Positions 30,995 through 50,864 of a stretch of 64,000 nt of DNA are shown one piece after another. The translations under genes and the position numbers were made by a program. The notes under the pieces were generated by a model. The model did no database searches, was not told where the DNA came from, and was given only the letters and a program-made list of their open reading frames with translations. The DNA comes from Alphaproteobacteria bacterium (GTDB lineage: Bacteria > Pseudomonadota > Alphaproteobacteria > JAAXGF01). Position 1 is the first letter of the stretch. Every line of letters starts with the position of its first letter. The stretch lies in NCBI GenBank assembly GCA_963555825.3, contig CAUVXB020000002.1, forward strand, positions 3,456,001 to 3,520,000. The letters run 5' to 3'.

Positions 30995-31055
30995 GGCCGC
31001 GCGGTCGTCGGGGCGACGTCGCCTCGAGCAACAATGGCCGCTACGGGTCCAGGCT

Positions 31056-32416
31056 GTTCTCTAACTCGGGGGTTGGTTGTCAAGCTCTCCGTGACGTACC
31101 TGCCGGGTTCACTGTTCTCTCCGCGGTAGGGGCTCGGCCCTCCGCATGATGGCGTTGGAGGACGTTGGCGGATCAATGTGTGAAGCGCGCTTGCCTCGGT
31201 GAGGCATCGCAAAGCCTGGATCGATCTCGCCGACGCCGCCGTCCCGACAGGGACATCGGTTCCGCTCTCGCGGAATGCTTGGACGTTGTTTCCCTATGCG
31301 GCCGCCTCCTTGGTTGACCAGATGAAGTCCGTTCCATCACGCCACATGCGATGGAGGATGACCGCCAGCTTCCGTGCCACGGCGATCTTGGCCTTCTTGA
31401 AGCCGATGCGTTTCCACAACCTGTGACCCCAGGCCTTGAGCGCGCACCATCGCGGCACCCGGGTGAGCAGCACGCCGGCCGCCTCGAAGAGGTAGGTCCT
31501 GAGCATTCGATCGCCGCATTTGGAGATCCGCCCCGTCCAATCGACCTCGCCGGAAGCATGGCGGCGCGGCGTCAGCCCGATGTACGCGCCGACACTCCGG
31601 GAACGTCGGAAGCGGCTCGGCTCGTCGATCGCCGAGTGGAAGGCCAAGGCGGTGATCGGCCCGATGCCTGGAACCGTCATGGAACGTCTGCTGTCCTCGT
31701 CGTTCCGCGCCAGGCCCAGCAGCTTGCGATAGAGCGCGGCGATCTCTCGGCCGACCTTCTCGCGGACTTCCAGAAGGGGCCGAACGGCCTCCGACAAAAG
31801 ACCCTGCCCGCCAAGCAGCTCTTCGACCCGGCGACGGAAGACATTGCCGCCCGCCTTGCCGATGACGAGGCCGAGGTTCTTGAGCAAGCCACGGATCTGG
31901 TTCTCGAGATCACGCTTGATCTTGACCAACTGGGCCCGGCTGTTCAGGACGGCCCGTATCTCGTGGCACGCCACGCTCGACTTGGACCTCCTTGTACCAA
32001 CCGCACTGCATGACCCGCGCGATCCCGGCGGCATCGTTCCGGTCGCTCTTGTTGATCTGCATCGACAGCGCCGCCTTGGCATGACGCGCATCGATGCAGA
32101 TCACCGGCAAGCCGAGCGCCCTGAGCTCATGCCACAGCCAGGTCGTCGTCGGACCGGTCTCCAGACCGATGCGCTTTGCGTGCGGCGCCGTTGTCCTGAT
32201 ATACGCCGCGATTGCCGCCGGCTCCGAGATCACCACGCCCTCGGACACGATCTCGCCGTTGTCATCGACCACGCAGATCGAGGTCTCCTTGAGCGATACA
32301 TCCATTCCAACATACAGTTCCATAGCTGCTCTCCTGCTCTTTCAGTGTGCTCGCCCGGCCCATGCCGGTCGTTGCTACATTAAGGAGAGCAGTGCCCGAT
32401 CCCCGAGTTACGCCAT
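31056..32416 (-). mobile_element. IS110 family (IS1111-type) element; transposase 31294-32323 frameshifted near 31975
   Basis: Subterminal IRs TAACTCGGGG / CCCCGAGTTA. Motifs YVGMDVS, GLETG, KSDRNDA, VPGIGP, GLTP...SG and ARKLAVILH. Confidence 0.9.
31084..31290 (-). ncRNA. Putative bridge/seek RNA of the IS110 at 31056-32416
   Basis: Noncoding region 3' of the transposase containing four segments that match the target flanks and the donor junction (see findings). Confidence 0.7.
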
Positions 32417-32768
32417 GTGTAAAAACCGCCCCCGAGCGCTATCGGCACGATTTTCTCTGAATTCTCGAATTTCTAAACTCAACAAAATCAATATCTTATC
32501 AGAGGACACCTTCGAAGAATTGACCGAACACTCTCCTGTTAGTGGGATTTGCCGGCGTTTTTACACAGCCTGAGCCACAAGCCGACATTCGAGTCTCGCC
32601 GTTAGACCCGGCAATGCGGCATGCCAATGCCGGCAAAACCGCGGCAATGGTCGTAGAGGCTCGGCTTCGCGATCACCAGCACGAAATCATCGAATTCGAT
32701 CATGTACGCCCCCGCTTCATCGTTGGCCCCACCATGCCACAAGCCCGCGCCGGCTTCGGCACGCCGGT

Positions 32769-33635
32769 TCAGGAGGCGCTTCTCACCAGGGGGAAGGTCT
32801 TGCAAGTGATCGGCCCGCCGTGGACCAGGTTCTCGCCGCGCTGCGAGGGGTCCGAGCTCTGGGGCATGTCGTTGTAGGTGACGTCGTCGCCCGCCCAGTT
32901 GGTCGAGAGCGCGGCGCGGCGGCGGTCGAGGCTGTTGCCCGGCGCGCTGTGAAAGGTGCGCGAGTTCCACACCAGGGTGTCGCCGGGCTCCATTGTGCAG
33001 CTCACGATTTCGGCGTCGGGTTCAGCGTCGAAATCGGGCGGCAGGGGCCGGTCTGTCATGGTGTTGGTGTATTCAAGGCCCGGGCCGAACGGGATGACGC
33101 GATAGACCGTGCCCTCGGCGTGCGAGCCTCTGACGAAGCGCAGGGCCGTCTCGGGCGGAATGGCGTCCAGCGCCGTCCAGCAGTTGATGATCTTGGTGCC
33201 GTTCAGCGGATAGTAGGAATGGTCCTGGTGCCAGGGCGTCGCCGCGCCGGCGCAATGGGCCGATTTCACCAGCAGGAAGTCGTAGTAGAAGTTCAGGCTC
33301 TTGGATTCGAGCAGCGGCCAGAAGAGGTCGGCGGCGTGGGACTCGAAGATGAAGCGCCGGAACGGCTCGACCTCCTTCCACATGACCGAGTCATAGTAGA
33401 AGAACCCCTCGCCCCCCTCGGGCGTTACCTTTCCCGCGCTCGAGCCGTGCAGCGCCATGGCCTGTTCGATGCCACTCTCGATCACGTCGAGCCAGTCGCG
33501 CCCGAAGGCGCCGCGCAAGCAGATCACGCCGTCACGCTTGTAGGCGGCGATAGCCTCGGGCGCCGGCCCGCCCGCGACAGGCAGCTCGAAGCTGGCGACC
33601 TCGCCGACGGCCCGATAGCTGCTCGATGCCGGCAT
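32769..33635 (-). CDS. Phytanoyl-CoA dioxygenase (PhyH) family Fe(II)/2OG oxygenase
   Basis: YKRDGVICLR, TPWHQD, WTALD, FVRGSH, MEPGD....RTFHSAPGN...RR. Confidence 0.9.
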   Translation of the reverse strand: MPASSSYRAVGEVASFELPVAGGPAPEAIAAYKRDGVICLRGAFGRDWLDVIESGIEQAMALHGSSAGKVTPEGGEGFFYYDSVMWKEVEPFRRFIFESHAADLFWPLLESKSLNFYYDFLLVKSAHCAGAATPWHQDHSYYPLNGTKIINCWTALDAIPPETALRFVRGSHAEGTVYRVIPFGPGLEYTNTMTDRPLPPDFDAEPDAEIVSCTMEPGDTLVWNSRTFHSAPGNSLDRRRAALSTNWAGDDVTYNDMPQSSDPSQRGENLVHGGPITCKTFPLVRSAS

Positions 33636-33860
33636 CGCATCCCCTCCGGACGCTGGCCCGGCCGTGAAGCTGGTACGGGCCGGATCAAGCGGGCTAATCG
33701 TGGCCTTCACGATAGTCATTCTCGACATGGCGAGGCAAATGAACCGACCCCAGGGGCCTCCCAAATATTGTGCCACTGTAGCAAGAACGGCACGTCCATG
33801 GAAGATCGGGCAACTTTGCCGGCTTCTGGCCGCGCTTCGTCGAGCCACGTCGCTTCCGGG

Positions 33861-34007
33861 GTCCGCTTTGTCGCGGGAACCAGACATCGAAGGTCGAGTC
33901 TCCGAACTCCTCGGCGCCAGGGTCCGCCTACGAGCGGGAACCGGACCTCCAAAGCTCAGAATTGAAACTTCACGGCCTCAATGTCAGCTAACCGGCGTGA
34001 ACCAGAC
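33861..34007. repeat. Cluster of three degenerate palindromic units, 61-bp period
   Basis: GTC(C/A)GC...AACC(A/G)GAC units start at 33861, 33922 and 33983. Confidence 0.7.
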
Positions 34008-34138
34008 CTCCCCGGAGAATCCGGTGACGGTGGAGCATGTCACACCTTCGACCCAAGCCCAAGCGGCCGCGGCCAGGGCGGGGAGCGGGGTAAGCACCCG
34101 AGGAGATGCGCGTCCTGTAACCATCGATCCGTTGCCAG

Positions 34139-34441: not shown

Positions 34442-34576
34442 CGGCTCGACCTCCTATGCCTTGCTGATTGGCCTATCTCCCCCGTTGCTACTGATTGGCC
34501 TGCCAGACAAACTACAAACATTCTCAGGTACGGTAGCACATGGAGCCGCGCGTTTCGCGAATGTCCGCTCGGGGTC

Positions 34577-36260
34577 CAGACTGTGTAAGAACGTTTGCTG
34601 CGTGATCTGTACGGCGCGTCTTTGGCTTCGATGATCCGTCGCGGCGGGTATTCCGGGATTAAGGATTTTCGCCACTCGTGCGGACCTGTCGGCCGGCTGG
34701 CGCCGGTGTGAGCTGCGATTTGGCCGGATATGGGCGCAATTTGCGGCGCAGAGAGGCCTATGCGGTCCTCATCGCCGCGATCAGCGGGTCGATGCCCGTG
34801 ATGTTCATGACGCGCTTGAGATTGTAGGCCAGCACGTGCAGGGCCATCTCGGTCCTCACCCGTTTCAGCGTCTTCGTCTGGAAATGCGTCGCGCCCATCC
34901 AGGACTTGATGGTGCCGAAGGGATGCTCGGCCGTCTCGCGCCGCCGACGCATCGCCTCCGGGTGCTCGTCGAGCCGCCTCTCGACGGCCTCGAGAACATG
35001 CTCGTGCTGCCAGCGGGTGATGCGGCGCTGCTTGGCCGTGGTGCAGCGATGCTTGATGGCGCATCCCTGACAGGCGTTGGTCCAGTAGCGCCGCATGCTC
35101 AGCCCCCTCTCCTGGCTGGTGAAGCGGTAGACCAAACGCTCGCCGGCCGGGCAGCGATAGACATCGTCGGCGGCCAGATAGACGAAGTCCTGTTTGCCGA
35201 AGCGGCCCTTGGCCTTGGCTCCAGAGGTCAGCGGCTTAGGCAATGTGACGGTGATGCCGGCCTCATCGCAGGCCAGAATCTCCTTGCCGTTGTAGTAGCC
35301 GCGATCGGCAACGACATCCAACTCGTCGGTCTCCAGAGCCGCCTTGGTCCGCTTCGCCATGGCTGAGAGCTGGGCGCGGTCGGTGCCCTGATTGGTCACC
35401 TCGTGGGCGACGATCAGGTGGTGCTTGGTGTCGACGGCGGCCTGAACGTTGTAGCCGACCACGCCGGAACCCCGGCCGCTCGTCGCCATCGAGCGGGCAT
35501 CGGGATCGCTCAGAGAGATCTGCTGGTCCGGGCTCGCACGCCGCTCGACTTCAAGCGCCTTCAGGCGCCGCATCTCCTCCTTGAGGATCGCGATCTTGTC
35601 GGCCAGACGAGTCGTCTTGGTCGTGCGCGCCAGCGACGGCTCTTGCCGGTCGGCGCTGTCCAACTGGTCCAGATAGCGCGCAACGCTCTCCTCGATCTGC
35701 GCCACCCGCCGCGCCATCTTGGCCCGCGTGAAGTTCCTGTCCCGGCTGTTGACCGCCTTGAACTTCGAGCCATCGATCGCCACGCTCGCCTCGGCGAACA
35801 GCCCGAGTTGCCGGCACAGCGCGACGAACCGGGCGCAGACCTTGCGGATCGCACGGCCGTTGTCCTTGCGGAAGTCGGCGATCGTCTTGTGATCCGGCGC
35901 CAGCCGGCCGACCAGCCACATCACTTCCACATTGCGCCCGGCCTCCCTCTCGAGCCGACGGCTCGACTGAACCCGGTTGAGATAGCCGTAGATGTAGAGC
36001 TTCAACAAATCGCAAGGATGATAGGCCGGCCTGCCGGTCGCCAGCGGCTCGACCCGGTCGAACCCGAGGCCGCCAAGATCGAGCTCATCGACGAAGACGT
36101 CGATCGCCCGAACCGGGTTGTCGTCGCCGATCCAGTCTTCCAGGCGCTCCGGAAACAACGTGCCCTGGCTGCGATCGACACCCTCGACAAAACGCTTCAT
36201 CAGACCCTCCCGCCAAAGCACGAGAGAATCATAACACCATCGACGTTTTTACACAGTCTG
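34577..36260 (-). mobile_element. IS1182 family element, copy 1; transposase 34758-36200 intact
   Basis: IRs CAGACTGTGTAA / TTACACAGTCTG and 4-bp TSD GGTC. Motifs GRPAYHP, PDHKTIADFR, AIDGSK, GYNVQ, ADRGY, EHPFG. Confidence 0.93.
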
Positions 36261-36597
36261 GGTCAACAGCAGACGTCCAGCGAGCCCGTCTCCGGCGTCC
36301 GCTTTCGAGCGGTAACCAGACCTAAATCGCGCGACTTCCAGATTTCATGAAACTCGCGTCTGCTTTTGAGCGGAAACCGGACGTCGCAGCGTGGTTCGTC
36401 TAATGTCTGCAATTAGCCGAGGGTGTTGAAGAAGTCGGTTGAGGGTCCAATTTCGTGATTTCCCTGGAACCAACGAAATTTTGATTTCAATGAAATCAAC
36501 GGCTTAGGAAACTCCCGATTTCGAAAATTCGGCCGATTCAGGCTCAAAATCGAATATTCGCGACTTCTTCAACACCCTCAGCCATCAGCAGACCTAC
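36261..36597. repeat. Four-unit palindromic repeat cluster (first unit begins 34560; split by IS1182 and a MITE)
   Basis: Units at 36297, 36358 and 36405. Shares exact GAGCGGTAACCAGACCTAAA (36307-36326) with 42656-42675. Confidence 0.8.
36419..36579. mobile_element. 161-bp MITE, IS1182-like ends
   Basis: 19-bp perfect IR GAGGGTGTTGAAGAAGTCG and 4-bp TSD AGCC. Confidence 0.88.
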
Positions 36598-38419: not shown

Positions 38420-38695
38420 CGTTCTCCCTCCCAATGTTTTAATCAGCCCCAGGGCCTGGCCATGTATTTTGGATACGACACGGCCGGGCCAAGCCGACAA
38501 AAAATCCGCCGCAGCTAAGCTGGGCGGTTATCCGATCGCTTTAGCTGCATTTATAACGCGCCCGCAATCTGATTAGGTCAAATCGGCGCGTAATCGCAAG
38601 CTAGGGCGAGTCCTTACGAGCGTCAAGGGAGCCCGGCGCTGCAAACGCTTCCGACAGCCTTTGGTCTTCATCGCATTCAACACGATGATGCTGTC

Positions 38696-39284: not shown

Positions 39285-39400
39285 ACGTCCTTCCTGGTTT
39301 TCTTGTTATCGATTTTCGAACGTCATGGTCGCGCTATCAGGTCGGCAAGTCGAGTCCACGGTCGGCCTTTTGCTCCGTGCCCCAATGACCGCTTTGGGTC

Positions 39401-41085
39401 CAGCCTGTGTGAGAACGTTTGCTGCTATTTCTGTGTGGCGCGTCTTTGGGTTTGGATGATCAGTCGGGACGTGTTTTCCGGGATTATGGATTTTCGCCGC
39501 TCGTGCGGGCTTTTCGGCCGGCTGGCGCCGTTGTGAGCCGCGATGTGGCCGGGTATGGGCGTAATTGTCGGCGCAGGGGCGCTATGCCGTCCTGATCGCC
39601 GCGATCAGCGGGTCGATGCCCATGATGTTCATGACGCGCTTGAGATTGTAGGCCAGCACGTGCAAGGCCATCTCGGTCCTCACCCGCTTCAGCGTCTTCA
39701 TCTGGAAGTGCGTCGCGCCCATCCAGGCCTTGAGGGTGCCGAAGGGATGCTCGGCCGTCTCGCGCCGCCGACGCATCGCCTCCGGGTGCTCGTCGAGCCG
39801 CCTCTCGACGGCCTCGAGAATGTGTTCGTGCTGCCAACGGGTGATGCGGTGCTGCTTGGCCGTGGTGCAGCGATGCTTGATGGCGCATCCCTGACAGGCG
39901 TTGGTCCAGTAGCGCCGCATGCTCAGCCCCCTCTCCTGGCTGGTGAAGCGGTAGACCAAACGCTCGCCGGCCGGGCAGCGATAGACATCGTCGGCGGCCA
40001 GATAGACGAAGTCCTGTTTGCCGAAGCGGCCCCTGGCCTTGGCTCCAGAGGTCAGCGGCTTAGGCAACGTGACGGTGATGCCGGCCTGATCGCAGGCCAG
40101 AATCTCCTTGCCGTTGTAGTAGCCGCGATCGGCAACGACATCCAGCTCGTCGGTCTCCAGAGCCGCCTTGGTCTGCTTGGCCATGGCTGAGAGTTGCGCG
40201 CGGTCAGTGCCCTGATTGGTCACCTCGTGGGCGACGATCAGGTGATGCTTGGTGTCGACGGCGGCCTGAACGTTGTAGCCCACCACGCCGGAACCCCGGC
40301 CGCTCGTCGCCATCGAGCGGGCATCGGGATCGCTCAGAGAGACCTGCTGGTCCGGGCTCGCACGCCTCTCGACTTCAAGCGCCTTCAGGCGCCGCATCTC
40401 CTCCTTGAGGATCGCAATCTTGTCGGCCAGACGAGTCGTCTTGGTCGTGCGCGCCAGCGACGGCTCTTGCCGGTCGGCGCTGTCGAGTTGCTGCAGATAG
40501 CGCGCAACGCTCTCCTCGATCTGCGCCACCCGCCGCGCCATCTTGGCCCGCGTGAAGTTCCTGTCCCGGCTGTTGACCGCCTTGAACTTGGCGCCATCGA
40601 TCGCCACGCTCGCCTCGGCAAACAGCCCCAGTTGGCGGCACAGGGCGATGAACTGGGCACAGACCTGGCGGATCGCAGAACCATTGTCCTTGGCCGAAGT
40701 CGGCGATCGTCTTGTGATCCGGCGCCAGCCGGCCGACCAGCCACATCACTTCCACATTGCGCCCGGCCTCCCTCTCGAGCCGACGGCTCGACTGAACCCG
40801 GTTGAGATAGCCGTAGATGTAGAGCTTCAACAAATCGCAAGGATGATAGGCCGGCCGGCCGGTCGCCAGCGGCGCGACCCGGTCGAACCCCAGACCACCA
40901 AGATCGAGCTCATCGACGAAGACGTCGATCGCCCGAACCGGGTTGTCCTCGCCGATCCAGTCTTCCAGGCGCTCGGGAAACAACGTGCCCTGGCTGCGAT
41001 CGACACCCTCCACAAAACGCTTCATCAGACCCTCCCGCCAAAGCACAAGAGAATCATAACACCATCGACGTTTTCACACAGGCTG
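39401..41085 (-). mobile_element. IS1182 family element, copy 2; transposase 39582-41025 frameshifted near 40693
   Basis: IRs CAGCCTGTGTGA / TCACACAGGCTG and TSD GGTC. Two overlapping partial ORFs. Confidence 0.92.
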
Positions 41086-42300: not shown

Positions 42301-42309
42301 GACTGCGGA

Positions 42310-42590
42310 TCAGCTCAGCGTTCTAACGGGCTTCATTCCCCGATGGGAACGCTTGTTGGCAGGTTGGATGTGTGACTGCATGTCTCCTTGGCGAAGGTGC
42401 CGTCCACAAGATTAGTCCCATCCCCGTCCTGTGATGGTCCATGTATACAGCATTGTGGCAAGCCGGATCGGAGCTGCCGGATATAAGGTGATGCGATCAC
42501 TCGCACGAAACATGGAACTCATCGCAAGACCCGCCCTGGATACAAAGCCATAACCAATGGAAGAGACGATCATGTGGCGTAGATTAAATC
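42310..42590 (+). ncRNA. Putative bridge/seek RNA of the IS110 at 41095-42618
   Basis: Contains ATGTCTCCTTG (42380-42390) and CGTCCACAAG (42401-42410), which match target flanks, and ATATAAG (42481-42487), which matches the donor end. Confidence 0.75.
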
Positions 42591-42618
42591 CACCTTGACA
42601 GCAAACGCCTCATATAAG

Positions 42619-42780
42619 GAGACATTGGCGGAGGCGGCGTGCGATGTCCGCTTCGGAGCGGTAACCAGACCTAAAAGCCCCATTGCCAAATTTCACGATA
42701 CTCGCGTCTGCTTTCGAACAGAGAGCGGTCCTCGCAGCGTCACTCGCCCAAGGTCAGCCTGTCGCCGGGACCCGACATTC
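42619..42780. repeat. Four-unit palindromic repeat cluster (first unit begins 39384; split by IS1182 and IS110)
   Basis: Units at 42646, 42706 and 42753, colinear with 36261-36420. Confidence 0.8.
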
Positions 42781-43139: not shown

Positions 43140-43698
43140 GGCCCGCCGCCGAGAGCGGCGGTCGCGTTTCCGCCGCGCGTCTCGAGTGTGTCGGTCGAGC
43201 CCGTCGAGGGCGGTGCCGTCGCCGATGGTCCTAGATGTTAATCGCCCCGTCGATAAAGGCTCTGGCGCACTGAGGGTACGGGTTTGGTAAAGCGTTAATG
43301 CGCTAGTAAGATGCATTGCGAATCAATCTTGCGCTCTGACGATCTTCGCAAACGTTTCCACGCAACCAAAACCCAAGCCGGCCCATAGGTATGGCTATTG
43401 CCAAACGGCAATCATCGGCCAGGTGCGGTCGGTCGAGTCTGCTACCCTCAGGGCCGGTTTAGGATCAGAAAGCGGTCGATTAAGGTTCACCGCGCAGACG
43501 GTGAAAGTTGACCCGAAGCCGAATTTTCTGGGTTGGCGGCAGGTATGAGGAATTGTGGCTTGCGTGAGCTAGCGATCGATCACTGCGCCGTCCCAGGGCG
43601 CCAAGTTATGATCAAGGAGCCGCTTCCATCGTTCTAGACAGCAAGAATTCTCACAGGTAGCCAATCCGTCCGAAGGCGTTTGCAGATTGCAGCTTGAC

Positions 43699-44601
43699 CT
43701 ACTGAGCGCTATTCCTGGAGCGCTTGTCACATTCAGCCACGAGCCAGTCGAAAAAGCGACGGACGGCAGTGTCTTCGTACGCCTTAGTGGATGCAACAAC
43801 ACAATAATACTTCTTTCGCGATGGGGCCTTTTTACTGTGCGCGGCAATGAGGCGCCCCGAAGAAAGGTCAGCATCGATGAGAGGATGATAGCCAATTGCA
43901 ATACCCAGCCCCGCAGCAGCCGCTTCGACAGTGACGTTGGGCTCGTCGAAAACCGGCCCATTGTTGGCCAAGCCCGTCGGTAGGCCTGCGGCGGCCAACC
44001 AATCACGCCAGTCATCACGATCCCTGACATGCAAAAGCGGATACTTGGCGAACCAATCCGCATTGGCTTGAGCCGCTGATCCTATTAAGCTCGGCGCAGA
44101 TATCGGTTGCATATCGAGCGACATAAGCTCTCGCACGATGGGTGCGTGCCATCCCCCTGTACCCCAGCGGATAGACAAATCGATTTCATGGCCCGGGGTC
44201 TCGCTAGTAAGAGAGTGACGAAGCTCAACAAGGACATCTGGGTTTGCTTCGCCGAACCGGTTGAGCTGCGGGGTGAGCCAGCGAGCGGAGAAAAATGGGC
44301 CGACTTGCACCTTGATCGAAGTCTTGACCCTGGAGTCGTCGATATCGCGAACCGCCTCGGACAACTCCATAATGGCGCGAGTCGCTGCGAGCCCGAGCCT
44401 GACGCCGCTTTCCGTCAACACGACCTCTCTCGACCGCCTCTCAAACAGCTTACGGCCCAGAAAATCCTCCAGCGATTTTACGTGCTGGCTGACTGCGCCG
44501 GGTGTGACGTTTAGCTCGCCCGCCGCCGCCTTGAAGCTCCTATGTCGCGCGGCGGCCTCGAAATAGCGAAACCACTGGAGAGGTGGAAGTCTCACACTCA
44601 T
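43699..44601 (-). CDS. LysR family regulator (GcvA-like)
   Basis: LPPLQWFRYFEAAARH.SF..AA.ELNVT.GAVSQ.VK.LE..LG..LF.R. Confidence 0.93.
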   Translation of the reverse strand: MSVRLPPLQWFRYFEAAARHRSFKAAAGELNVTPGAVSQHVKSLEDFLGRKLFERRSREVVLTESGVRLGLAATRAIMELSEAVRDIDDSRVKTSIKVQVGPFFSARWLTPQLNRFGEANPDVLVELRHSLTSETPGHEIDLSIRWGTGGWHAPIVRELMSLDMQPISAPSLIGSAAQANADWFAKYPLLHVRDRDDWRDWLAAAGLPTGLANNGPVFDEPNVTVEAAAAGLGIAIGYHPLIDADLSSGRLIAAHSKKAPSRKKYYCVVASTKAYEDTAVRRFFDWLVAECDKRSRNSAQ

Positions 44602-44799
44602 TGTTAACCTCAAGGGAACAGTCCGCTGGCCGATGTCGAAGCGACCGTGTGGAGAAATATTATGCGGCTCAGTTTAGCTCAGCTAATACACTAAGCCGAA
44701 AATCTCGCTTGCCGTCAACCGCAATGCAGGTCCACTCTAACGCGGAGAATAGCGGGTCGGGCGGTGCGACGGAGCCGTCCTCCGGAATCGTGGAAGGAC

Positions 44800-46197
44800 A
44801 TGGGGACAGTCAGTCAAACCCAGCGCACGCTCAACGAGGCATGGACGGCGCTCGGCGGCGACCACGACCGACTAGGGAGCGTAGCCTTCTCACACGACGG
44901 AGAGTTGCGATCCGTCTATCCGGTCGACGATCTCGCCTCAGCCATGGTGGGGTGCGCTGGCATGGCCATAGCCGAGCTGATCGAGCACCACGCCGGCGAA
45001 CGGCCGAACGTAATCGTTGACCGAAGGCTGACGTCTTTGTGGTTCGACTCAACCGTTCGCCCAATTGGCTGGACACTGCCTCCGCAGTGGGACGCCATCT
45101 CCGGCAACTATCGAGCCAAAGATGGCTGGATCAGAGTACATGCATATCTTCCCAAGCACTCTGCGGCGGTGCGACATGTCCTTGGGACGAACAGTAATCC
45201 GAAAGAAGTCGCTGCGGTAGTCACGACACGGGATTCGATCACGATAGAGACAGACATTGTCGAGAGTGGCGGTTCGGCGGCCGCAATGCGGAAGCTCTCC
45301 GATTGGGAGCGGCATCCCCAAGCTGTGGCCAACTCCGCGGAGGCGGTGGTCCACGTCGAGCCTGGCATGAGATCTCCCGTGCCAGGGCTCGCGTTCGTTC
45401 GAGATCGGCCTCTTACGGGCGTCAGGGTGCTCGACCTGACGCGCATCGTTGCAGGCCCGGTCGCCACCCGATTGCTCGCGGGCTTCGGCGCTGAGGTCCT
45501 GCATCTCGCTGCTCCGGGATGGCGCGAGCTTGCCTTGGAGCCCGATCTATCAGTTGGAAAAAAATGTGCCTTTCTCGACCTGAGTGATGCCTGTGGCAAA
45601 CAGGAATTCGAGCGTCTCCTAAGCCAGGCTGATGTCTTTGTTCATGGCCTGCGCGCGGACGTTTTGCCGAAGCTGGGCTACGATGCGACGTCTCGCCAAA
45701 GGATTCGACCCGGACTGATCGACGTCTCGCTGAACGCCTACGGTTGGAACGGGCCATGGACGAACCGCCGCGGCTTTGACACCGTCGTCCAGATGAGTAC
45801 GGGCGTCGCGGCGACGGGCATGGAAGCAACGGGCGCCGATAAGCCGGTAATGCTGCCGGTATCGGCTCTGGACCATTCAGTTGGCTATCTTCTGGCGGCG
45901 GCGACGATTCGCGGACTGGTGAACCGCCTCTCCACGGGCAGCGGTGTTATTGTCCGAAGTTCTCTCGCGCAGATGGCGGCGCTGCTGACGGGTTGCGGAG
46001 CGTGCAGCGCGGATGATCAGTCTCGGCCTGCGTACAAAGACGAGGAGCCGTCGTATGCCGAGGGCACATTCTGGGGGCCGGCGAAACGGCTTCGAGCTCC
46101 ACTGAGCGTCGCCGACACAGCGTTCCATTGGGACCGTGCGGCGGGCCCATACGGCGCATCCACTGCAAAGTGGGAGGCGAGCCGCCGATGCCCATAG
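44800..46197 (+). CDS. CoA-transferase family III (CaiB/BaiF)
   Basis: PLTGVRVLDLTRIVAGPVATRLLAGFGAEV and GPW..RRGFDTVVQ. Confidence 0.88.
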   Translation: MGTVSQTQRTLNEAWTALGGDHDRLGSVAFSHDGELRSVYPVDDLASAMVGCAGMAIAELIEHHAGERPNVIVDRRLTSLWFDSTVRPIGWTLPPQWDAISGNYRAKDGWIRVHAYLPKHSAAVRHVLGTNSNPKEVAAVVTTRDSITIETDIVESGGSAAAMRKLSDWERHPQAVANSAEAVVHVEPGMRSPVPGLAFVRDRPLTGVRVLDLTRIVAGPVATRLLAGFGAEVLHLAAPGWRELALEPDLSVGKKCAFLDLSDACGKQEFERLLSQADVFVHGLRADVLPKLGYDATSRQRIRPGLIDVSLNAYGWNGPWTNRRGFDTVVQMSTGVAATGMEATGADKPVMLPVSALDHSVGYLLAAATIRGLVNRLSTGSGVIVRSSLAQMAALLTGCGACSADDQSRPAYKDEEPSYAEGTFWGPAKRLRAPLSVADTAFHWDRAAGPYGASTAKWEASRRCP

Positions 46198-46257
46198 CTC
46201 AGACCGGCGTTGGACCCGGTACACTCAGCCTATTCCGTCCTACAACTGGAGAAAGCA

Positions 46258-47586
46258 ATGGAGCCTTGCGATCTAAGCGCGACCGATGCGATTGCGCTCA
46301 TCTCTTCTGAGAAGCTCAGCGCGGAGGAGCTGGTCCGCTCCTGCCTGGCCCGAATTGAGGCGCGTGAGCACATCGTGAAGGCTTGGGCGTGGATCGATCC
46401 GCAAAAAGCCGTGCGCGACGCAAGAGAGCTCGATAATAAGAGACTCGCGGGCGGGCCGGTCGGTGTCCTCAACGGAATTCCCTTCGGCGTGAAAGATGTC
46501 ATCGATACTGCCGACATGCCGACGAGCGGCAACTCGGCTCACCGCATCGGATATCAGCCGAGCGAAGATGCGAGCTGTGTCGCCATCGCCAGATCGTGCG
46601 GGGCGCTGCTCCTGGGAAAGACAGAAACGGTCGAGCTCGCATGGGGCGGTCGGATCCCTCGAACCCGGAATCCACTGGACCCACGATTCACGCCAGGAGG
46701 CTCGTCCTCCGGCTCCGCCGCGGCGGTTGCCGACAACCACGTGCCACTCAGCATCGGCACGCAGACCTATGGCTCTCATATCAGACCTGCATCATTCAAT
46801 GCGATCTATGGTTATAAGCCGACACATGGCTTGATCCCGTGGACCGGAGCCTGGCAGAACTGCCCCAGCCTCGATACGATTGGCTGGTACAGTCGAGACC
46901 CGCGGGACTTCTCGTTGCTTGCACGGGCCTTTCAGTTCGCCGGCGCCGAAGAGCGCGTCGACGTCAGAGCCCACGCGCTCCGGCTCGGGATCGCTCGGAC
47001 GCACAACTGGGACATGACAAGCCCCGACTGTCGGAATGTGGTCCAATCCGCCATCGCAGCCCTGAAGTGCGAGAAGATCTCCGTGGTCGAGGTCGAGTCG
47101 CCGGCTGAGTTCAGATGCCTGAACCATTCGCATGAAGTCATCGCGCGCCATGAAGCGAGAATTCATCTCCTACCTGAATACCTTCGTACTGGTGGAAGGA
47201 TGGAAGCGGACTTCCAGGAAATTATGGCGGACGAAGCAAGAATCTCGCCCGAAGACTACCTGAAGTGCATTGACCATGCCGCCCGCAGCCGAACCATGTT
47301 CGACTCGATGTTTGGCGCTGATTTGGACTGCATCATTACGCCCGCTGCGATCGGCGAACCTCCGAAAGGATATGACACAGGCGACTGGGTTATGTGCTCA
47401 ATTTGGACGCTCTTGCACGCTCCATGTGTTGCCGTCCCGGTAGGCAAGGGTCAAAACGGACTGCCCATAGGCGTCCAGATTGTCGGACCGCGCCTGGGAG
47501 ATATTCGGCTTCTTGAGATTGTCGAGCAGCTAGCTCCTATCCTACAAGGCGGCAATGACGGCGTCAGCGACTTCGCTGGAGCTTGA
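46258..47586 (+). CDS. Amidase-signature family amidase
   Basis: GIPFGVKD, GKT.T.E, PGGSSSGSAAAVA, IGTQTYGSHIRPA. Confidence 0.92.
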   Translation: MEPCDLSATDAIALISSEKLSAEELVRSCLARIEAREHIVKAWAWIDPQKAVRDARELDNKRLAGGPVGVLNGIPFGVKDVIDTADMPTSGNSAHRIGYQPSEDASCVAIARSCGALLLGKTETVELAWGGRIPRTRNPLDPRFTPGGSSSGSAAAVADNHVPLSIGTQTYGSHIRPASFNAIYGYKPTHGLIPWTGAWQNCPSLDTIGWYSRDPRDFSLLARAFQFAGAEERVDVRAHALRLGIARTHNWDMTSPDCRNVVQSAIAALKCEKISVVEVESPAEFRCLNHSHEVIARHEARIHLLPEYLRTGGRMEADFQEIMADEARISPEDYLKCIDHAARSRTMFDSMFGADLDCIITPAAIGEPPKGYDTGDWVMCSIWTLLHAPCVAVPVGKGQNGLPIGVQIVGPRLGDIRLLEIVEQLAPILQGGNDGVSDFAGA

Positions 47587-48624
47587 GCTCCCTCTCATGT
47601 CCGGCGTCTTTAAACCGTTGTCCAGGGCCGCGGATACGGCCAGCTCGATTTCCTTCGCGAGATCAGAGCGGTCAAGAGAGTATTCGAGCAGCATGGCCGC
47701 GCTCAAGATTGCGCCGAGCGGATTGGCGAGGCCCTGTCCGGCGATATCATTCGCGCTTCCATGAACCGGTTCGTACAGACCGAACTGTCCGCCATCGCAG
47801 GGACGCGCGCCGAGCGAGGCTGATGGCAGCATTCCGAGTGAGCCGGTGATCATCGCGGCTCCGTCCGATAGAATATCGCCAAAAAGGTTCTCCGTGACGA
47901 TTACATCATACTGCCTCGGATTCCGGACGAGTTGCATGGCTGCATTGTCTACATACTGGTGCTCAAGGTCTATGTCGGGATAGCGAGCTTCATTCAGGTC
48001 CGAGAATATCTGTCGCCAGAGCACGCTCGACTCCAGCACATTCGCCTTGTCGACGGACACCAGCTTGCTGTTGCGCCGCTGTGCGAGAGAGAATGCGACA
48101 TGGGCGATCCGCTCGATCTCCCACTCGGCATAGGTCAGGGTATCCGTCGCAATCCTATGGCCGTCGTCCTGACGCGATATTCCGCGGGGCGCGCCAAAAT
48201 AGATTCCACCGCAGAGCTCTCGCAAGATGATGAAGTCGACATCAGCGATAGCTTCTGGCTTGAGTGTGGAAGCGTCGATCGCCGACTTCATCGGCCTGAT
48301 CGGCCTCACATTAGCGAATAGATTGAGCTTCCTGCGCAACCGCGCCAGGCCGCTTCTTGCCTCGGGCGGACCATCGAGCTCCAAGCCATCCCATTTGGGA
48401 CCGCCTTCTGATCCGAACAAGACGGCGTCAGCTTCGCGGGCTTCTTCTAGCGTCTCGTCCGTCAGAAAGCACCCCGTTCGGTCGTAGCAAGCGCCACCCA
48501 CCATTCCATATGTGAATGCAAGTTCAAAGCCTTCTCGATTTGCCAAGTGCTCCAAGACCCGAATCGCGCAGGCAACGACTTCCGGCCCGACCCCGTCGCC
48601 GGGCAGCACTAGGATGTTCGACAT
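47542..48624 (-). CDS. leuB: 3-isopropylmalate dehydrogenase-like beta-decarboxylating dehydrogenase
   Basis: LPGDGVGPE, RELCGGIYFG, VDKANVL, ENLFGDILSD, YEPVHGSA.DIAG. Confidence 0.85.
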   Translation of the reverse strand: MSNILVLPGDGVGPEVVACAIRVLEHLANREGFELAFTYGMVGGACYDRTGCFLTDETLEEAREADAVLFGSEGGPKWDGLELDGPPEARSGLARLRRKLNLFANVRPIRPMKSAIDASTLKPEAIADVDFIILRELCGGIYFGAPRGISRQDDGHRIATDTLTYAEWEIERIAHVAFSLAQRRNSKLVSVDKANVLESSVLWRQIFSDLNEARYPDIDLEHQYVDNAAMQLVRNPRQYDVIVTENLFGDILSDGAAMITGSLGMLPSASLGARPCDGGQFGLYEPVHGSANDIAGQGLANPLGAILSAAMLLEYSLDRSDLAKEIELAVSAALDNGLKTPDMRGSSSSSEVADAVIAAL

Positions 48625-48670
48625 GCCTTCATCTCCTTGTCACGCTGATTGAACGCAGGATCTCTACGCA

Positions 48671-49177
48671 TCAGCGCCTCCGCAGCTCCGACTTCAGCAA
48701 AGGCACAATGCCACCGACCTCCAATATCCTGAGGACGTCCTCGGGGAACGCTGGAAAAGTGAATTTGGCGCCGGTTGACTGGTTTGCAATCGCACCTGCC
48801 TGGAGGTCGATCGAGCAGAGCTCGCCGTCCCGGAAGCGCTCGCGCGCATCCGTCACCTCAATCACCGGCAAGCCTCCGCTGATAGCATTTCGCATGAAGA
48901 TTCCGGCGCAGGACTCTACAACCACGCAAGAGACCCCAACCGCCTGGAGGAGGCGGGATCCGAGCCTGCTCGAACCGCACCCGAAGTTTTCACCTGCGAC
49001 GACTATGTCGCCTCTGACCACGTTTTCTGAGAATTCGGGCCTTATCGCGCGCATGCAGTGACGTTTTGCTTCCTCTTCACTCATCTTCGAGAGCATCACG
49101 TGCCCTGGCATCATGTACTCGGTGCTGATATTGTCGCCGAATGCCCAGACGCGTCCCGCTGGCTTCATTGTGCCCAT
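48671..49177 (-). CDS. LeuD/HacB/DmdB-type hydratase small subunit
   Basis: GRVWAFGDNIST, GDIVVAGENFGCGSSR, IFMRNAI..GLP. Confidence 0.88.
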   Translation of the reverse strand: MGTMKPAGRVWAFGDNISTEYMMPGHVMLSKMSEEEAKRHCMRAIRPEFSENVVRGDIVVAGENFGCGSSRLGSRLLQAVGVSCVVVESCAGIFMRNAISGGLPVIEVTDARERFRDGELCSIDLQAGAIANQSTGAKFTFPAFPEDVLRILEVGGIVPLLKSELRRR

Positions 49178-49185
49178 GTCGCCAC

Positions 49186-50439
49186 CTAAATCGCCGCCGG
49201 GTCGGTGATAGCGCCCACGACGGCGCTGGCCGCAACCGTCGCCGGCGACGCTATATAGACTTCGGCGCTCGGGCTGCCCATCCGGCCTTTGAAGTTCCGG
49301 CTGCTTGACGCGATGCAGACCTCTCCATCTCCGAGCACACCCATGCTCAGCCCCATGCAAGCGCCGCACGTAGAGTTTGTAACGATCGCCCCGGCATCTA
49401 CAAAGATTTGCATCAAGCCAGAACTCGCCATTTCACGGAAAACTGCCTGCGACGCCGGGGTAACTATCATCCGGACATGATTGGCGATCTTGCGGCCACG
49501 CAGGATGCTGGCGGCGACTTCCATATCTTCCATACGTCCATTCGTGCAACTTCCCAGAAATGACTGATCAATACGAACACCAGAGAGATCTCGCGCCGGA
49601 GTTACCTTGAACAGATTGTGAGGGCCCGCGACGAGGCTCTGAATCTCACCCAATTCCAGATAGATGGAGCGTTCCACGGCGGCACCTGGATCCGACCTAA
49701 CTGGCTTGAAGGGTTGGCGTGCTCGTCCATTCAGGAATCTCCTGGCGATGTCGTCGAACTCGAATAGGGCGAACTCTGCACCCAGATCGACAGCCATGTT
49801 CGAAAGTACCATCCTACTTTCGATCGAGAGGTCCTTCAGTGCGCTTCCCCTGTACTCGATGGCGCGGTTCAGGAAGGGGCGGAAGCCAAACCTGTGACAT
49901 AAGTATAGAATGACATCCTTTGATGATATCCATCGTGCCAACTTGCCGTTCAGGGATACTGAAACGGTCGCGGGCACCTTGAACCAGAGCTCCCCTTTGG
50001 CGAGTACGTAGATGATTTCTTGGAGCACGCCGCGACTCGCCATGTTCAACGCGCCGTAAGTGGTCGAATGCGAGTCGTTTCCGATCGCCAGCTGACCAGG
50101 CAATGCGAAGCCTTGCTCGACAAAGAACTGGTGGCAGATGCCGTGACGGCCCATATCGAAAAAGTTGGCAATGCCGAACCTGGAGATCATCTTTCTTGAG
50201 TTTGCATACATTGTCGCAACCGCGGATGACGAAGGAGGCACCTCATGATCGTGAATGACCACAACCCGCTGCGGATCGAACACTTTGGACAGGCCGATCT
50301 CGTGGATTGCTTCGATAAGATGGCCATCGAAGCTGTCGAGCATTAGCCAGTCCACTTTGCAGGTTATGATCTCTCCAGGCGAAACTCGCTCGAGGCCGGA
50401 CTTTTCTGCTAAGATTTTTTCAACTATGGTCGACGTCAT
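49186..50439 (-). CDS. LeuC/HacA/DmdA-type hydratase large subunit (4Fe-4S)
   Basis: TIVEKIL, GICHQ, DSHSTTYGA, GSCTNGR, CGACMG, SRNFKGRMG. Confidence 0.9.
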   Translation of the reverse strand: MTSTIVEKILAEKSGLERVSPGEIITCKVDWLMLDSFDGHLIEAIHEIGLSKVFDPQRVVVIHDHEVPPSSSAVATMYANSRKMISRFGIANFFDMGRHGICHQFFVEQGFALPGQLAIGNDSHSTTYGALNMASRGVLQEIIYVLAKGELWFKVPATVSVSLNGKLARWISSKDVILYLCHRFGFRPFLNRAIEYRGSALKDLSIESRMVLSNMAVDLGAEFALFEFDDIARRFLNGRARQPFKPVRSDPGAAVERSIYLELGEIQSLVAGPHNLFKVTPARDLSGVRIDQSFLGSCTNGRMEDMEVAASILRGRKIANHVRMIVTPASQAVFREMASSGLMQIFVDAGAIVTNSTCGACMGLSMGVLGDGEVCIASSSRNFKGRMGSPSAEVYIASPATVAASAVVGAITDPAAI

Positions 50440-50864
50440 TTGTCAGCCGATCTCCAGGTGGCTTTGCATCAGTAAACCTACAGCCGCAGCCTCATCACAA
50501 CAAACCATGACTCCAAGCGTGAAGATTAGTTGAGCTAAACTATCTCGGGGGAGCCAGTTTTCTGCTTTGTTGAGGGATCGTGATTCGATGGAAACCGATT
50601 TCGGGTGATGATTCGCCTCGGGCGGGCCTATATGAACATGTCCTCGTATGGCTACTTTCGCCCTAACCGATGGCCGGTGGCAGATGACCGGTCTGGGATC
50701 CAAAAGCCGACGTTCTGTTCGCCGATCAAGAAAGACCGAGTTGGGTCGACTCCGGCCTTTGGCCGGGCCGAGCCCGTCGAGGGCGGCGCGAAAGGGCGCC
50801 GAACAGCGGCCCCCGGGCAAGCGCGGACGCGCCGCCTGAGCGCCTGTTTTCGGCGCAAAAGCCG

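What the first reader, a model, noticed from the sequence alone, without database searches (positions are those of the whole stretch)
31033..50715. Integron-like array: unrelated cargo genes bounded by clusters of a non-attC palindromic unit
Seen: once IS and MITE insertions are removed, a degenerate ~25-bp hairpin unit (AATGTCCGCT..GGGTCA..AGC.GACATT, internal variant GTCCGCTT..GAGCGG.AACC.GAC) recurs. It is at 31033/32573, 33861-34007 (3 units), 34560/36261-36597 (4 units), 39384/42619-42780 (4 units), and more degenerately at 43452-43525, 50684-50715 and about 11200/11380. Within clusters the spacing is fixed at about 46-47 or 60-61 bp. Between clusters lie short unrelated gene blocks: PhyH dioxygenase; DUF3144-like; YeeE + secreted protein + AraC/GFA remnants; and the 7-kb LysR-leuCDB block. 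Most are on the minus strand with a unit about 100-250 bp upstream of the start. The units lack the RYYYAAC/GTTRRRY attC boxes and no integron integrase is in the window. Established: attC hairpins attract IS1111 elements and group IIC introns. Inference: these units are recombination sites of an uncharacterised cassette-capture system, parasitised in the same way (IS1182, IS1111, possibly a group II intron).
Basis: partly seen in the sequence, partly recalled or inferred. Interest (0 to 1): 0.8.

Follow-up and report, generated by a model that had tools for sequence, protein, structure and literature searches.

The report
Dispersed palindromic repeats used as IS targets
The repeated hairpin-like units are real, but they are ordinary genome-wide intergenic repeats that several insertion sequences home in on, not the recombination sites of a new integron-like gene-capture system.

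Summary
An HMM finds 7 significant B-type units in the window. Four A-type palindromes are split by mobile elements. The three "degenerate" sites are not supported.

The units are not local. The genome holds 78 B-type units in 55 intergenic clusters on both contigs. They form roughly 200-bp mosaics (A, then B units about 61 bp apart, then A').

An IS1182-family element (30 copies, 22 at 99.5% identity or more) sits in the loop of diverged A units. It always has one orientation and a 4-bp duplication (19 of 24). A related MITE sits in A' units (8 of 9 by eye).

Perfect A and A' palindromes occur in six other families of the class, including genomes where this IS was not found.

No integron integrase was found, no attC features, and no compensatory changes in the stem. 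The YeeE block carries its own SAM-II riboswitch.

The one cargo block shown to vary between strains, the 7.57-kb LysR block, is bounded by a unique 18-bp direct repeat, not by units.

Verdict: a REP/BIME/RIME-like repeat family used as IS landing sites. Neighbouring mosaics are clustered and co-oriented (19 of 22), and this is not fully explained.

The parts
31033..31049 (+). Left half of an A-type palindromic unit (AATGGCCGCTACGGGTC).
   Evidence: Sequence. A-model hit 31032-31049, E 0.26 within the window. Same form as the left flanks of the IS1182-like copies.
31050..32572 (.). IS1182-type MITE (terminal repeats CAGGCTGT... and ...ACACAGCCTG). An IS110-family element at about 31058-32415 interrupts it. 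That element's transposase is on the minus strand and split into two ORFs (31294-32091, 31910-32323).
   Evidence: Sequence. Pfam Transposase_20 and DEDD_Tnp_IS110. All 5 copies of this IS110 element lie between CTGT and GTAAAAAC-type termini.
32573..32589 (+). Right half of the same A-type unit (AGCCACAAGCCGACATT).
   Evidence: Sequence. A-model hit 32571-32592, E 0.83. Repeat family D6.
33852..34010 (+). Mosaic 1: three B-type units 61 bp apart (cores at 33861, 33922, 33983). The A-to-B linker lies at 33838-33860.
   Evidence: nhmmer E 3.5e-9, 5.8e-7 and 1.2e-3. Repeat families D4 and D8.
34560..34576 (+). Left half of the A unit of mosaic 2. It ends in the duplicated GGTC.
34577..36260 (-). 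IS1182-family insertion sequence, 1,684 bp. Transposase of 487 aa at 34758-36221. Terminal inverted repeats CAGACTGTGTAAGAAC and GTTTTTACACAGTCTG.
   Evidence: Pfam DUF772 + DDE_Tnp_1 + DDE_Tnp_1_6. 30 copies of at least 1,400 bp in the genome. Best plasmid relatives are annotated as IS1182 family, up to 72% amino-acid identity.
36261..36417 (+). Rest of mosaic 2: A right half (GGTCAACAGCAGAC), B units at 36297 and 36358, and the A' left half (36401-36417).
   Evidence: nhmmer E 2.1e-11 and 1.8e-9 (B model) and 1e-3 (A model)..
36418..36579 (.). MITE with IS1182-like termini, inserted in the A' unit. AGCC is duplicated on both sides.
   Evidence: Inverted repeat I1. 9 near-full copies in the genome, 8 of them (by eye) flanked by A' half-sites.
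36580..36595 (+). Right half of the A' unit of mosaic 2.
38520..38599 (-). SAM-II (SAM_alpha) riboswitch upstream of the 181-aa ORF and the YeeE-like gene. This cargo block therefore has its own leader.
   Evidence: Rfam RF00521, 42.6 bits (gathering score 36).
39384..39400 (+). Left half of the A unit of mosaic 3.
   Evidence: A-model hit E 0.024..
39401..41085 (-). Second IS1182-family copy, 94.6% identical to the first. The reading frame is broken, and GGTC is duplicated at both ends.
   Evidence: ORFs 39582-40607 and 40375-41046.
41095..42619 (+). IS110-family element (transposase 41167-42300) inserted after ...GGTCACAAG, in the right part of the A unit. Boundaries are good to a few bases.
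   Evidence: Pfam. 12 copies, each preceded by a ..CA(C/T)AAG site. 8 of the 12 lie inside another repeat.
42620..42737 (+). Rest of mosaic 3: the end of the A right arm (AGACATT), then B units at 42646 and 42707.
   Evidence: nhmmer E 1.3e-9 and 1.2e-6. Repeat families D4, D7 and D8.
43196..43213 (+). Left copy of the 18-bp direct repeat (CGAGCCCGTCGAGGGCGG) that bounds the 7.57-kb islet.
   Evidence: The exact 18-mer occurs only twice in the genome. Alignment.
43214..50768 (.). Lower-GC islet: LysR, CoA-transferase III, amidase, Iso_dh-family, Aconitase_C and Aconitase genes. It is missing from a related population.
   Evidence: Pfam. GC 0.52-0.63. A contig of run X6 joins 43213 to 50811, and X6 depth is 0-0.86 in the bins from 43673 to 50342.
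50769..50786 (+). Right copy of the 18-bp direct repeat, about 170 bp upstream of rplU.
   Evidence: A similar hairpin motif lies at a similar distance from rplU in 1 of 5 relatives examined.

Best explanation
The units belong to a dispersed family of intergenic palindromic units. They share the arms GTCYGC...GCRGAC and have three loop types. A has a GGGTCA loop, A' has a TAGCCA-type loop, and B has the loop TTTCGAGCGGNAA. The units are assembled into mosaics of about 200 bp: A, then one to four B units about 61 bp apart, then A'. In kind this is a REP/BIME- or RIME-like repeat of the host genome, older than the insertion sequences now inside it.

Its visible role here is as a landing site.
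- An IS1182-family transposase recognises the A palindrome. It cuts with a 4-bp stagger in the loop (GGTC) and inserts in one orientation.
- A non-autonomous MITE with related ends uses A' units in the same way (AGCC).
- One IS110-family element then targets the terminal repeat of these IS1182-type elements.
- Another IS110-family element targets a CACAAG-containing site that happens to occur in some A units.

The "array" in the window is three such mosaics in successive intergenic gaps of an IS-ridden, lower-GC accessory stretch upstream of rplU.

Shown: the distribution, the target specificity, the duplications, the orientation, and the age difference between IS copies and their flanks.
Inferred: that the transposase itself reads the palindrome, and that the mosaics have no dedicated recombinase. 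How the mosaics originally spread is unknown.
For: 1. Genome-wide family. nhmmer finds 78 B units in 55 clusters, with 21 units on C1 and 57 on C2. The pattern count is 44 against 0 for the reversed control. 54 of 55 clusters overlap no gene in my own gene calls.
2. Mosaic architecture. 21 of 23 neighbouring B hits are 57-66 bp apart. 37 of 55 clusters have an A right half upstream. 27 of 55 have an A-type left half downstream.
3. IS targeting.
- There are 30 IS copies of at least 1,400 bp: 22 are at least 99.5% identical to the window copy and 8 are 94-97% identical.
- Of the 24 copies with an intact left end, 19 have a perfect 4-bp duplication. 20 have the left arm, 17 the right arm and 14 both.
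- At 50,000 random positions the rates are 8.2%, 8.2% and 0.66%.
- The flanks differ from copy to copy while the IS bodies are near-identical.
- B units lie within 150 nt of the same IS end in 19 of 30 copies, always on the same strand (19 of 19).
- 8 of 9 MITE copies (by eye) sit in A' units.
- Intact GGGTCA-loop units are almost gone: 0 exact matches, and 12 matches allowing two substitutions against 6 in the reversed-genome control.
4. The units are independent of the IS. Perfect A and A' palindromes occur in 6 of 150 other families sampled in the class. Two of those genomes (99% and 93% complete) gave no match to this transposase.
5. Precedent. REPs are specific targets of IS elements of the IS3, IS110, IS4, IS256 and IS5 families (PMC1525189, passages read). 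IS1182-family IS1272/TnSha1 targets hairpins, and that paper cites a review saying some family members target palindromes (PMC4923244, passages read).
6. 45 of 55 clusters have a multicopy gene as nearest neighbour, against 46% of 3,342 intergenic gaps.
Against: - Neighbouring clusters are closer than chance. 22 of 53 gaps are under 14 kb, against a simulated mean of 6.7 and a maximum of 16.
- Close neighbours are co-oriented in 19 of 22 cases (p = 0.0009). Distant neighbours are random, 16 of 31.
- Only 6 of the 22 close gaps hold no unique gene, so IS insertion alone does not explain the clustering. Neighbouring mosaics are also not clearly more alike than others (p = 0.09). A plain REP model does not predict this pattern.
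- Copy number (78 B units) is lower than for classical REPs. The units are direct, not alternating as in BIMEs.
- No cognate RAYT was found, so the way the family spread is unexplained.
- The right breakpoint of the PhyH block in a near relative falls exactly at the first B unit.
- No transposition assay exists, so target recognition by the transposase is inferred from insertion sites only.
- Gene calls come from my own crude caller.
Confidence: 0.78

Rival explanations
1. Integron-like cassette system. The units are recombination sites of a dedicated but unidentified site-specific recombinase, which captures and shuffles the gene blocks between them.
For: - Three co-oriented mosaics separate small unrelated gene blocks in the window.
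- Genome-wide, close neighbours are co-oriented in 19 of 22 cases and often enclose one to five unique genes.
- In a relative that is 96% identical, homology around PhyH ends exactly where the first B unit begins.
Against: - The units lie at 55 loci on both contigs and also in other families of the class.
- No integron integrase was found: best 79 bits against a cut-off of 265.
- No R/L boxes are present (sequence).
- The units are conserved in sequence with no compensatory pairs. Column pair 9-27 gives p = 0.37, and column pair 11-25 is anticorrelated. attC sites show the opposite pattern (recalled knowledge).
- The blocks carry their own riboswitch or regulator and lie on both strands.
- The relative keeps the A-to-B linker of the same mosaic, so the PhyH breakpoint is inside the mosaic, next to IS fragments. 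The other breakpoint (32721) is not at a unit. No units were detected in that contig.
- The 7.57-kb block's breakpoints lie in an unrelated 18-bp repeat.
Confidence: 0.04
2. Recombinase-independent capture. The roughly 200-bp mosaics act as portable homology. A circle carrying one mosaic integrates by homologous recombination at another mosaic, leaving cargo between co-oriented mosaics.
For: - It predicts both the local clustering and the co-orientation of complete mosaics around unique genes.
- It needs no dedicated enzyme.
- The window's three mosaics are each complete, not halves of one split mosaic.
Against: - By eye and from repeat families in the window, mosaics are only about 65-83% identical to one another. 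That is poor substrate for RecA (inference).
- No cargo block of the window has a second copy elsewhere in the genome apart from diverged paralogues. The YeeE paralogue is 79% identical.
- No strain difference bounded by mosaics was seen in the four runs laid. Contigs break at repeats, so this is a weak test.
Confidence: 0.08
3. The units are not host repeats. They are part of the IS1182-like element, or are carried along with it as transduced flanks.
For: - B units lie next to the same IS end in 19 of 30 copies, always in the same orientation.
- Almost all GGGTCA-loop units are occupied.
- Two IS copies share 149 bp of left flank at 96% identity.
Against: - Flanks vary strongly among IS copies that are 99.8-100% identical.
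- By the IR-end motif, only 24 of 55 B clusters have an IS1182-type end upstream. So most clusters lack this IS.
- The palindromes occur in genomes where the transposase was not found.
- Perfect 4-bp duplications mark simple insertion.
Confidence: 0.03
4. The mosaics are mainly functional cis elements, such as terminators, mRNA stabilisers or protein-binding sites. IS targeting is incidental.
For: - They are strictly intergenic.
- The loop sequences of A and A' are conserved across families of the class. This suggests recognition by some conserved factor.
- IS1272 targets were shown to be terminators in staphylococci (PMC4923244, passages read).
Against: - There is no fixed orientation towards flanking unique genes, judged by eye on about nine loci.
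- Orientation does not track the local majority gene strand (p = 1.0).
- The window's B units fold weakly, and no compensatory changes are seen.
- No Rfam family matches.
- No expression data were examined.
Confidence: 0.05

Closest known systems
E. coli REP/PU sequences in BIMEs, with IS1397 and ISKpn1 inserting into the palindromic units
   Same: - Short GC-rich imperfect palindromes.
- Extragenic.
- Several sequence types combined into regularly spaced mosaics.
- Serve as the specific target of an IS.
[quoted passage not shown]
   Different: - Here the units are direct rather than alternating.
- Copy number is lower (78 B units).
- There is no GTAG head and no cognate RAYT.
- The targeting IS is of the IS1182 family, not IS3.
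The details of BIME architecture are partly from the abstract of PMC2817692 (listing) and partly recalled.
Sinorhizobium meliloti REP/RIME elements targeted by ISRm22 and ISRm19
   Same: An alphaproteobacterium in which every copy of a DDE element sits inside intergenic palindromic repeats: ISRm22, 10 of 10, Pfam Transposase_11. An IS110-family element does the same: ISRm19, 4 of 4 (PMC1525189, Table 2).
   Different: I did not compare sequences with RIME or ISRm22, so homology is untested. That paper files ISRm22 under IS4. The supplementary alignments of the paper were not seen.
IS1272 / TnSha1 (IS1182 family) in staphylococci
   Same: Same IS family. Insertion into hairpin-forming inverted repeats (PMC4923244, passages read).
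   Different: IS1272 shows no primary-sequence preference, cuts in the stem, deletes part of the target and makes no duplication. Here the cut is in the loop, a 4-bp duplication is made, the orientation is fixed and the target sequence is conserved.
Integron attC arrays
   Same: Repeated imperfect palindromes between unrelated genes, co-oriented locally.
   Different: No IntI, no attI/Pc, no R/L boxes. The units are conserved in sequence rather than structure. They lie at 55 dispersed loci rather than one array. The cargo has its own regulation and mixed strands.
REPIN-RAYT systems
   Same: Dispersed palindromic repeats. The genome does encode Y1 transposases (3 Pfam Y1_Tnp matches).
   Different: The one Y1 gene with flanking repeats has a different GTAG-headed palindrome. 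No B units lie within about 1.5 kb of any of the three. The units here are not arranged as inverted pairs.

Membership tests
Integron (attC cassette array) | IntI-type tyrosine recombinase next to the array | tested here: not met
   TIGR02249 searched in the whole genome. The best match is 79 bits against a cut-off of 265, with 0 matches over the cut-off. The model gives sub-threshold matches in all 14 control genomes. None of the listed matches lies inside the window.
Integron (attC cassette array) | attC sites: conserved R''/L''-L'/R' boxes (RYYYAAC / GTTRRRY), with structure conserved while sequence varies | tested here: not met
   The boxes are absent from the unit sequences. The units are conserved in sequence, and the variable stem positions show no compensatory change. 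IntegronFinder itself was not available.
Integron (attC cassette array) | One local array of mostly promoterless, co-oriented single-gene cassettes | tested here: not met
   There are 55 clusters on two contigs. The YeeE block has a SAM-II riboswitch. The LysR block has genes on both strands and its own regulator.
REP / BIME-like dispersed palindromic units | Short imperfect palindromes, extragenic, many copies per genome | tested here: met
   78 B units plus A and A' units. 54 of 55 clusters are free of called genes. The count is at the low end for REPs.
REP / BIME-like dispersed palindromic units | Combination of unit types into regularly spaced mosaics | tested here: met
   A-B(n)-A' architecture with B units about 61 bp apart. 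The units are direct, not alternating.
REP / BIME-like dispersed palindromic units | Cognate RAYT flanked by the same REP; GTAG head | tested here: not met
   Three Y1_Tnp genes. None has B units in its flanks. One is flanked by a different GTAG-headed palindrome.
IS1182 family (the 1,684-bp element) | DDE transposase with the DUF772 + DDE_Tnp_1_6 architecture and terminal inverted repeats | tested here: met
   Pfam. Inverted repeat I3. The nearest plasmid-borne relatives are annotated as IS1182 family, 63-72% amino-acid identity.
IS1182 family (the 1,684-bp element) | Preference of some members for palindromic or hairpin targets | tested here: met
   14 of 24 insertions have both arms, against 0.66% of random positions. 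Literature: PMC4923244.
MITE (window 36418-36579) | Short, non-coding, with terminal inverted repeats, target duplication and multiple copies | tested here: met
   Inverted repeat I1. 9 near-full copies at about 78-80% identity, with AGCC/GGCC-type 4-bp repeats at the junctions. Mobilisation by the IS1182-type transposase is inferred from similar termini only.

The most novel reading that the evidence does not exclude
The mosaics are more than passive repeats. They serve as portable landing pads at which foreign gene blocks accrete. This would happen either through an unrecognised recombinase or through homology-driven integration of mosaic-bearing circles. The genome would then hold many small, co-oriented, mosaic-bounded "cassette" neighbourhoods: a dispersed, integrase-less analogue of an integron.

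The unexplained local clustering (22 close gaps against 6.7 expected) and co-orientation (19 of 22) are what keep this reading open.
Probability: 0.08. Interest if true: 0.7.

Novelty: new member of a known kind. Interest (0 to 1): 0.3.

Why it matters
- It removes a tempting false lead. Co-oriented hairpin-like repeats between unrelated genes need not be a gene-capture system.
- It gives a clean natural example of an IS1182-family element with sequence- and orientation-specific insertion into the loop of a palindromic unit.
- The A and A' palindromes keep the same loops in several distant families of the class. This suggests a widespread repeat family. My four literature searches did not target or turn up a description of it, so whether it is in print remains open.
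- The local co-orientation of mosaics is a small open question about how such repeats spread.

Tried and rejected
- Replication-strand bias as the cause of co-orientation. GC skew is scrambled. Unit orientation against local skew gives p = 0.06, and distant neighbours are random. Not supported.
- Transcription-linked orientation. No relation to the local majority gene strand (p = 1.0).
- Recent local duplication of mosaics. Neighbours are not clearly more similar than others (p = 0.09), and the neighbour is the best partner in only 1 of 22 cases.
- Synteny test of the island. Upstream of rplU in four relatives of other genera, no window gene apart from rplU and rpmA was found. The island's borders could not be set this way. 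The order holds only 13 genomes and none is of the same genus.
- A-unit HMM iteration collapsed from 24 hits to 1. A broad palindrome regex gave 491 mostly irrelevant hits. Stricter patterns with a reversed-genome control replaced both.
- Read laying. Runs X15, X1 and X2 carry the same arrangement as the window. Many "joints" between mosaics or IS copies carry other letters and are most simply paralogous copies elsewhere, so they were not used. X6 lacks cover over 43.7-50.3 kb. I use this only together with the contig that joins across.
- The IS1182-like flank in a Bradyrhizobium plasmid (L026) showed no recognisable terminal repeat with my motif. One Methylorubrum copy has flanks with a 4-bp duplication and a partial palindrome. 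That is a single case and is not used.
- The supplementary alignments of PMC1525189 were not seen.

Full report
**1. What is in the window**

The window is G000:C2:3456001-3520000, in a 6.04-Mb genome of two contigs at about 65% GC. Reading 30.9-43.8 kb shows two kinds of unit.

- B-type units have the consensus GTCYGCT-N4-RGCGG-N-AASC-N-GAC.
- A-type units are palindromes of the form AATGTCYGCT..GGGTCA..AGCRGACATT.

An HMM built from the window's units and iterated on the genome finds seven significant B units in the window. They lie at 33852-33892, 33915-33949, 33976-34010, 36287-36326, 36353-36389, 42641-42677 and 42697-42737.

The A units are all interrupted.

- At 31049/32573 by a small IS1182-type MITE, which itself carries an IS110-family element.
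- At 34576/36261 by a 1,684-bp IS1182-family element.
- At 36417/36580 by a 162-bp MITE.
- At 39400/41086 by a second IS1182-family copy, followed by a further IS110-family element at about 41095-42619.

The site near 11.2 kb is a related MITE.

No group II intron RNA is detected in the window.

The so-called leuCDB block also holds a CoA-transferase and an amidase.

**2. The units are a genome-wide family**

- The iterated search gives 78 B units in 55 clusters, with 21 units on C1 and 57 on C2.
- A degenerate pattern with one mismatch hits the genome 44 times. The reversed control hits 0 times.
- With my own crude gene caller (5,191 genes), 54 of 55 clusters overlap no gene.
- 21 of 23 neighbouring B hits lie 57-66 bp apart.
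- 37 of 55 clusters have an A right half just upstream, and 27 of 55 have an A-type left half just downstream.

The recurrent element is therefore a mosaic of A, B(1-4) and A', about 200 bp long, with partly conserved linkers.

The 16 unique flanking proteins submitted, from 9 of the 10 clusters with unique genes on both sides, are a mixed set. They include HemY, DUF1178, GFA, GST, a sulfotransferase, methyltransferases, DctP, TPR proteins and a luciferase-like oxygenase.

**3. Distribution beyond this genome**

The GTDB order holding this genome has only 13 genomes, and none is of the same genus. Three of the 12 relatives have 1-3 pattern matches. Most are fragmented assemblies, so absence is not shown.

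In a sample of one genome per family of the class (151 genomes), perfect palindromes with the same arms and the same A and A' loops occur in six other families. The loops are TTTGGGTCA.. and T.TAGCCA...

Two of those genomes, 99% and 93% complete, gave no match to the IS1182-like transposase. The palindromes are therefore host repeats, not by-products of this IS.

**4. The IS elements use the units as targets**

The IS1182-like element has 30 copies of at least 1,400 bp. 22 are at least 99.5% identical to the window copy, and 8 are 94-97% identical.

| Feature (24 copies with an intact left end) | Observed | At 50,000 random positions |
|---|---|---|
| Perfect 4-bp duplication, mostly GGTC | 19 | not applicable |
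| Left arm at the expected distance | 20 | 8.2% |
| Right arm at the expected distance | 17 | 8.2% |
| Both arms | 14 | 0.66% |

- The arms and loop flanks differ from copy to copy although the IS bodies are nearly identical. The flanks are therefore older targets, not part of the element.
- The orientation is fixed. By eye, GGGTC always lies to the left and GGTCA to the right. B units lie within 150 nt of the same IS end in 19 of 30 copies, always on the same strand.
- Intact GGGTCA-loop units are nearly exhausted. There are 0 exact matches, and 12 loose matches against 6 in a reversed-genome control.
- The MITE has 9 near-full copies, 8 of them (by eye) in A' units with AGCC-type duplications. 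Its termini resemble those of the IS.
- The IS110-family element at 31.06-32.4 kb has 5 copies, all inside the terminal repeat of IS1182-type elements.
- The IS110-family element at 41.1-42.6 kb has 12 copies, each next to a ..CA(C/T)AAG site. 8 of the 12 lie inside another repeat, and only two or three lie in A units.

This genome is extremely rich in IS elements. 1,245 of 5,191 called genes have three or more copies, covering about 1.1 Mb. Even so, 45 of 55 unit clusters have a multicopy gene as nearest neighbour, against 46% of all intergenic gaps.

Published precedent fits this picture.

- REPs are specific targets of IS elements of five families. In S. meliloti, ISRm22 sits in them in 10 of 10 copies and ISRm19 in 4 of 4 (PMC1525189, passages and Table 2 read).
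- IS1182-family IS1272/TnSha1 inserts into hairpins (PMC4923244, passages read).
- The transposase's nearest plasmid-borne relatives are annotated as IS1182 family, with up to 72% amino-acid identity.

**5. Tests of the cassette idea**

- *Recombinase.* No integron integrase was found. The best match is 79 bits against a cut-off of 265. There are three Y1 transposase genes. None has B units within about 1.5 kb. One is flanked by a different, GTAG-headed palindrome.
- *Structure.* In 68 aligned B units, the variable stem positions show no compensatory change. Column pair 9-27 gives Fisher p = 0.37. Column pair 11-25 is anticorrelated, with 19 C-C, 11 G-G and 0 G-C. The window's six B units fold weakly as DNA. 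This is sequence conservation without structural compensation.
- *Cargo autonomy.* A SAM-II riboswitch lies upstream of the ORF-YeeE pair. The 7.57-kb block has a LysR gene. It also has a 17-nt inverted-repeat pair upstream of both divergent operons, which I read as LysR boxes by inference.
- *A near relative.* A metagenome contig (L044) encodes a PhyH that is 97% identical. It matches the window only over 32721-33858, at 96.3% nucleotide identity.
  - Its right breakpoint coincides with the start of the first B unit.
  - However, the contig retains the A-to-B linker of the same mosaic and then continues into fragments of IS elements. The break therefore lies inside the mosaic, next to IS debris.
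  - The left breakpoint is not at a unit. In the window it abuts a 116-nt fragment of another gene.
  - No units were detected elsewhere in the contig.
- *Public runs.* Three runs carry the window's arrangement. In a sediment metagenome run, one contig (depth 8.9) joins 43213 to 50811. The 23 letters between resemble 50788-50810. Cover is absent over 43.7-50.3 kb.
  - The missing 7.57-kb block is flanked by a perfect 18-bp direct repeat at 43196-43213 and 50769-50786.
  - This repeat occurs nowhere else in the genome. The block has no terminal inverted repeats.
  - A related hairpin motif lies at a similar distance upstream of rplU in one of five relatives.
  - So the one cargo block shown to be variable has its breakpoints in a different repeat.
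- *Paralogues.* The cargo blocks are single-copy apart from diverged paralogues.

**6. What remains unexplained**

- Clusters are aggregated. 22 of 53 gaps are under 14 kb, against a simulated mean of 6.7 and a maximum of 16.
- Close neighbours are co-oriented in 19 of 22 cases (p = 0.0009). Distant neighbours are not, at 16 of 31.
- Multicopy genes cover 48% of the intervening DNA. 6 of the 22 close gaps hold no unique gene, but 16 hold one to five.
- Replication strand, transcription direction and recent local duplication do not account for the pattern.

Possible causes are ancient local spread, mosaics arriving with imported islands, or recombination at mosaics.

**7. Verdict**

The interpretation as an integron-like system is not supported. 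The element is a REP/BIME/RIME-like mosaic repeat family whose A and A' units are the specific insertion sites of an IS1182-family element and its MITE. Two IS110-family elements ride on these or on a short sequence motif.

- **Novelty:** a new member of a known kind.
- **Interest:** 0.3.

Noticed in passing
window 43196-50786: A 7.57-kb lower-GC islet sits about 170 bp upstream of rplU. It holds LysR, CoA-transferase III, amidase, Iso_dh-family and aconitase-family genes. It is flanked by a perfect 18-bp direct repeat found nowhere else in the genome. One contig of a sediment metagenome run joins across it. It has no integrase and no terminal inverted repeats, so the way it inserted is unknown.
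   Followed up: partly
window 38520-38599 (-): A SAM-II (SAM_alpha) riboswitch lies upstream of a 181-aa ORF with no Pfam family and a YeeE-like sulphur-transport gene. Diverged copies of the leader lie at C2:1527455 and C1:855668.
   Followed up: partly
window 51777-52050: A repeat of about 272 bp lies between rpmA and the next gene. The listed matches show about 27 further copies at 89-96% identity in this genome, with more copies in relative G004. It is probably another MITE.
   Followed up: no
whole genome G000: Extreme IS load: 1,245 of 5,191 called genes have three or more copies, covering about 1.1 Mb. Several IS types are present at 60-85 copies each. GC skew is scrambled.
   Followed up: partly
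window 42906-42969: A 16-nt tandem repeat (GCCGGGTTTTCGCATG) is present four times. One public run has a contig with one 16-nt copy fewer.
   Followed up: no
window 39252-39400 and G000:C2:2814340-2814488: Two IS1182-like copies of the older (about 95% identity) subgroup share 149 bp of left flank at 96% identity. This suggests a segmental duplication or a transduced flank.
   Followed up: no
window 32605-32720: A 116-nt fragment matches sequences in two other genera of the family at 79-81% identity. It ends exactly where homology to the PhyH contig of the near relative begins. It is probably a truncated gene left by a rearrangement.
   Followed up: partly
G000:C2:2727489-2728080: A Y1 (RAYT-like) gene is flanked on both sides by a GTAG-headed palindrome built around GGGCGGGTTTCAAACCCGCCC. 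This looks like a separate REP-RAYT pair unrelated to the units studied here.
   Followed up: partly
window 44671-44687 and 50525-50541: A 17-nt inverted pair (94% complementary) lies upstream of the two divergent operons of the islet. These may be LysR boxes.
   Followed up: no
window 31294-32323: The IS110-family transposase of this copy is split into two overlapping ORFs. Contigs of three runs, probably from other copies, carry two extra letters behind 31978.
   Followed up: no
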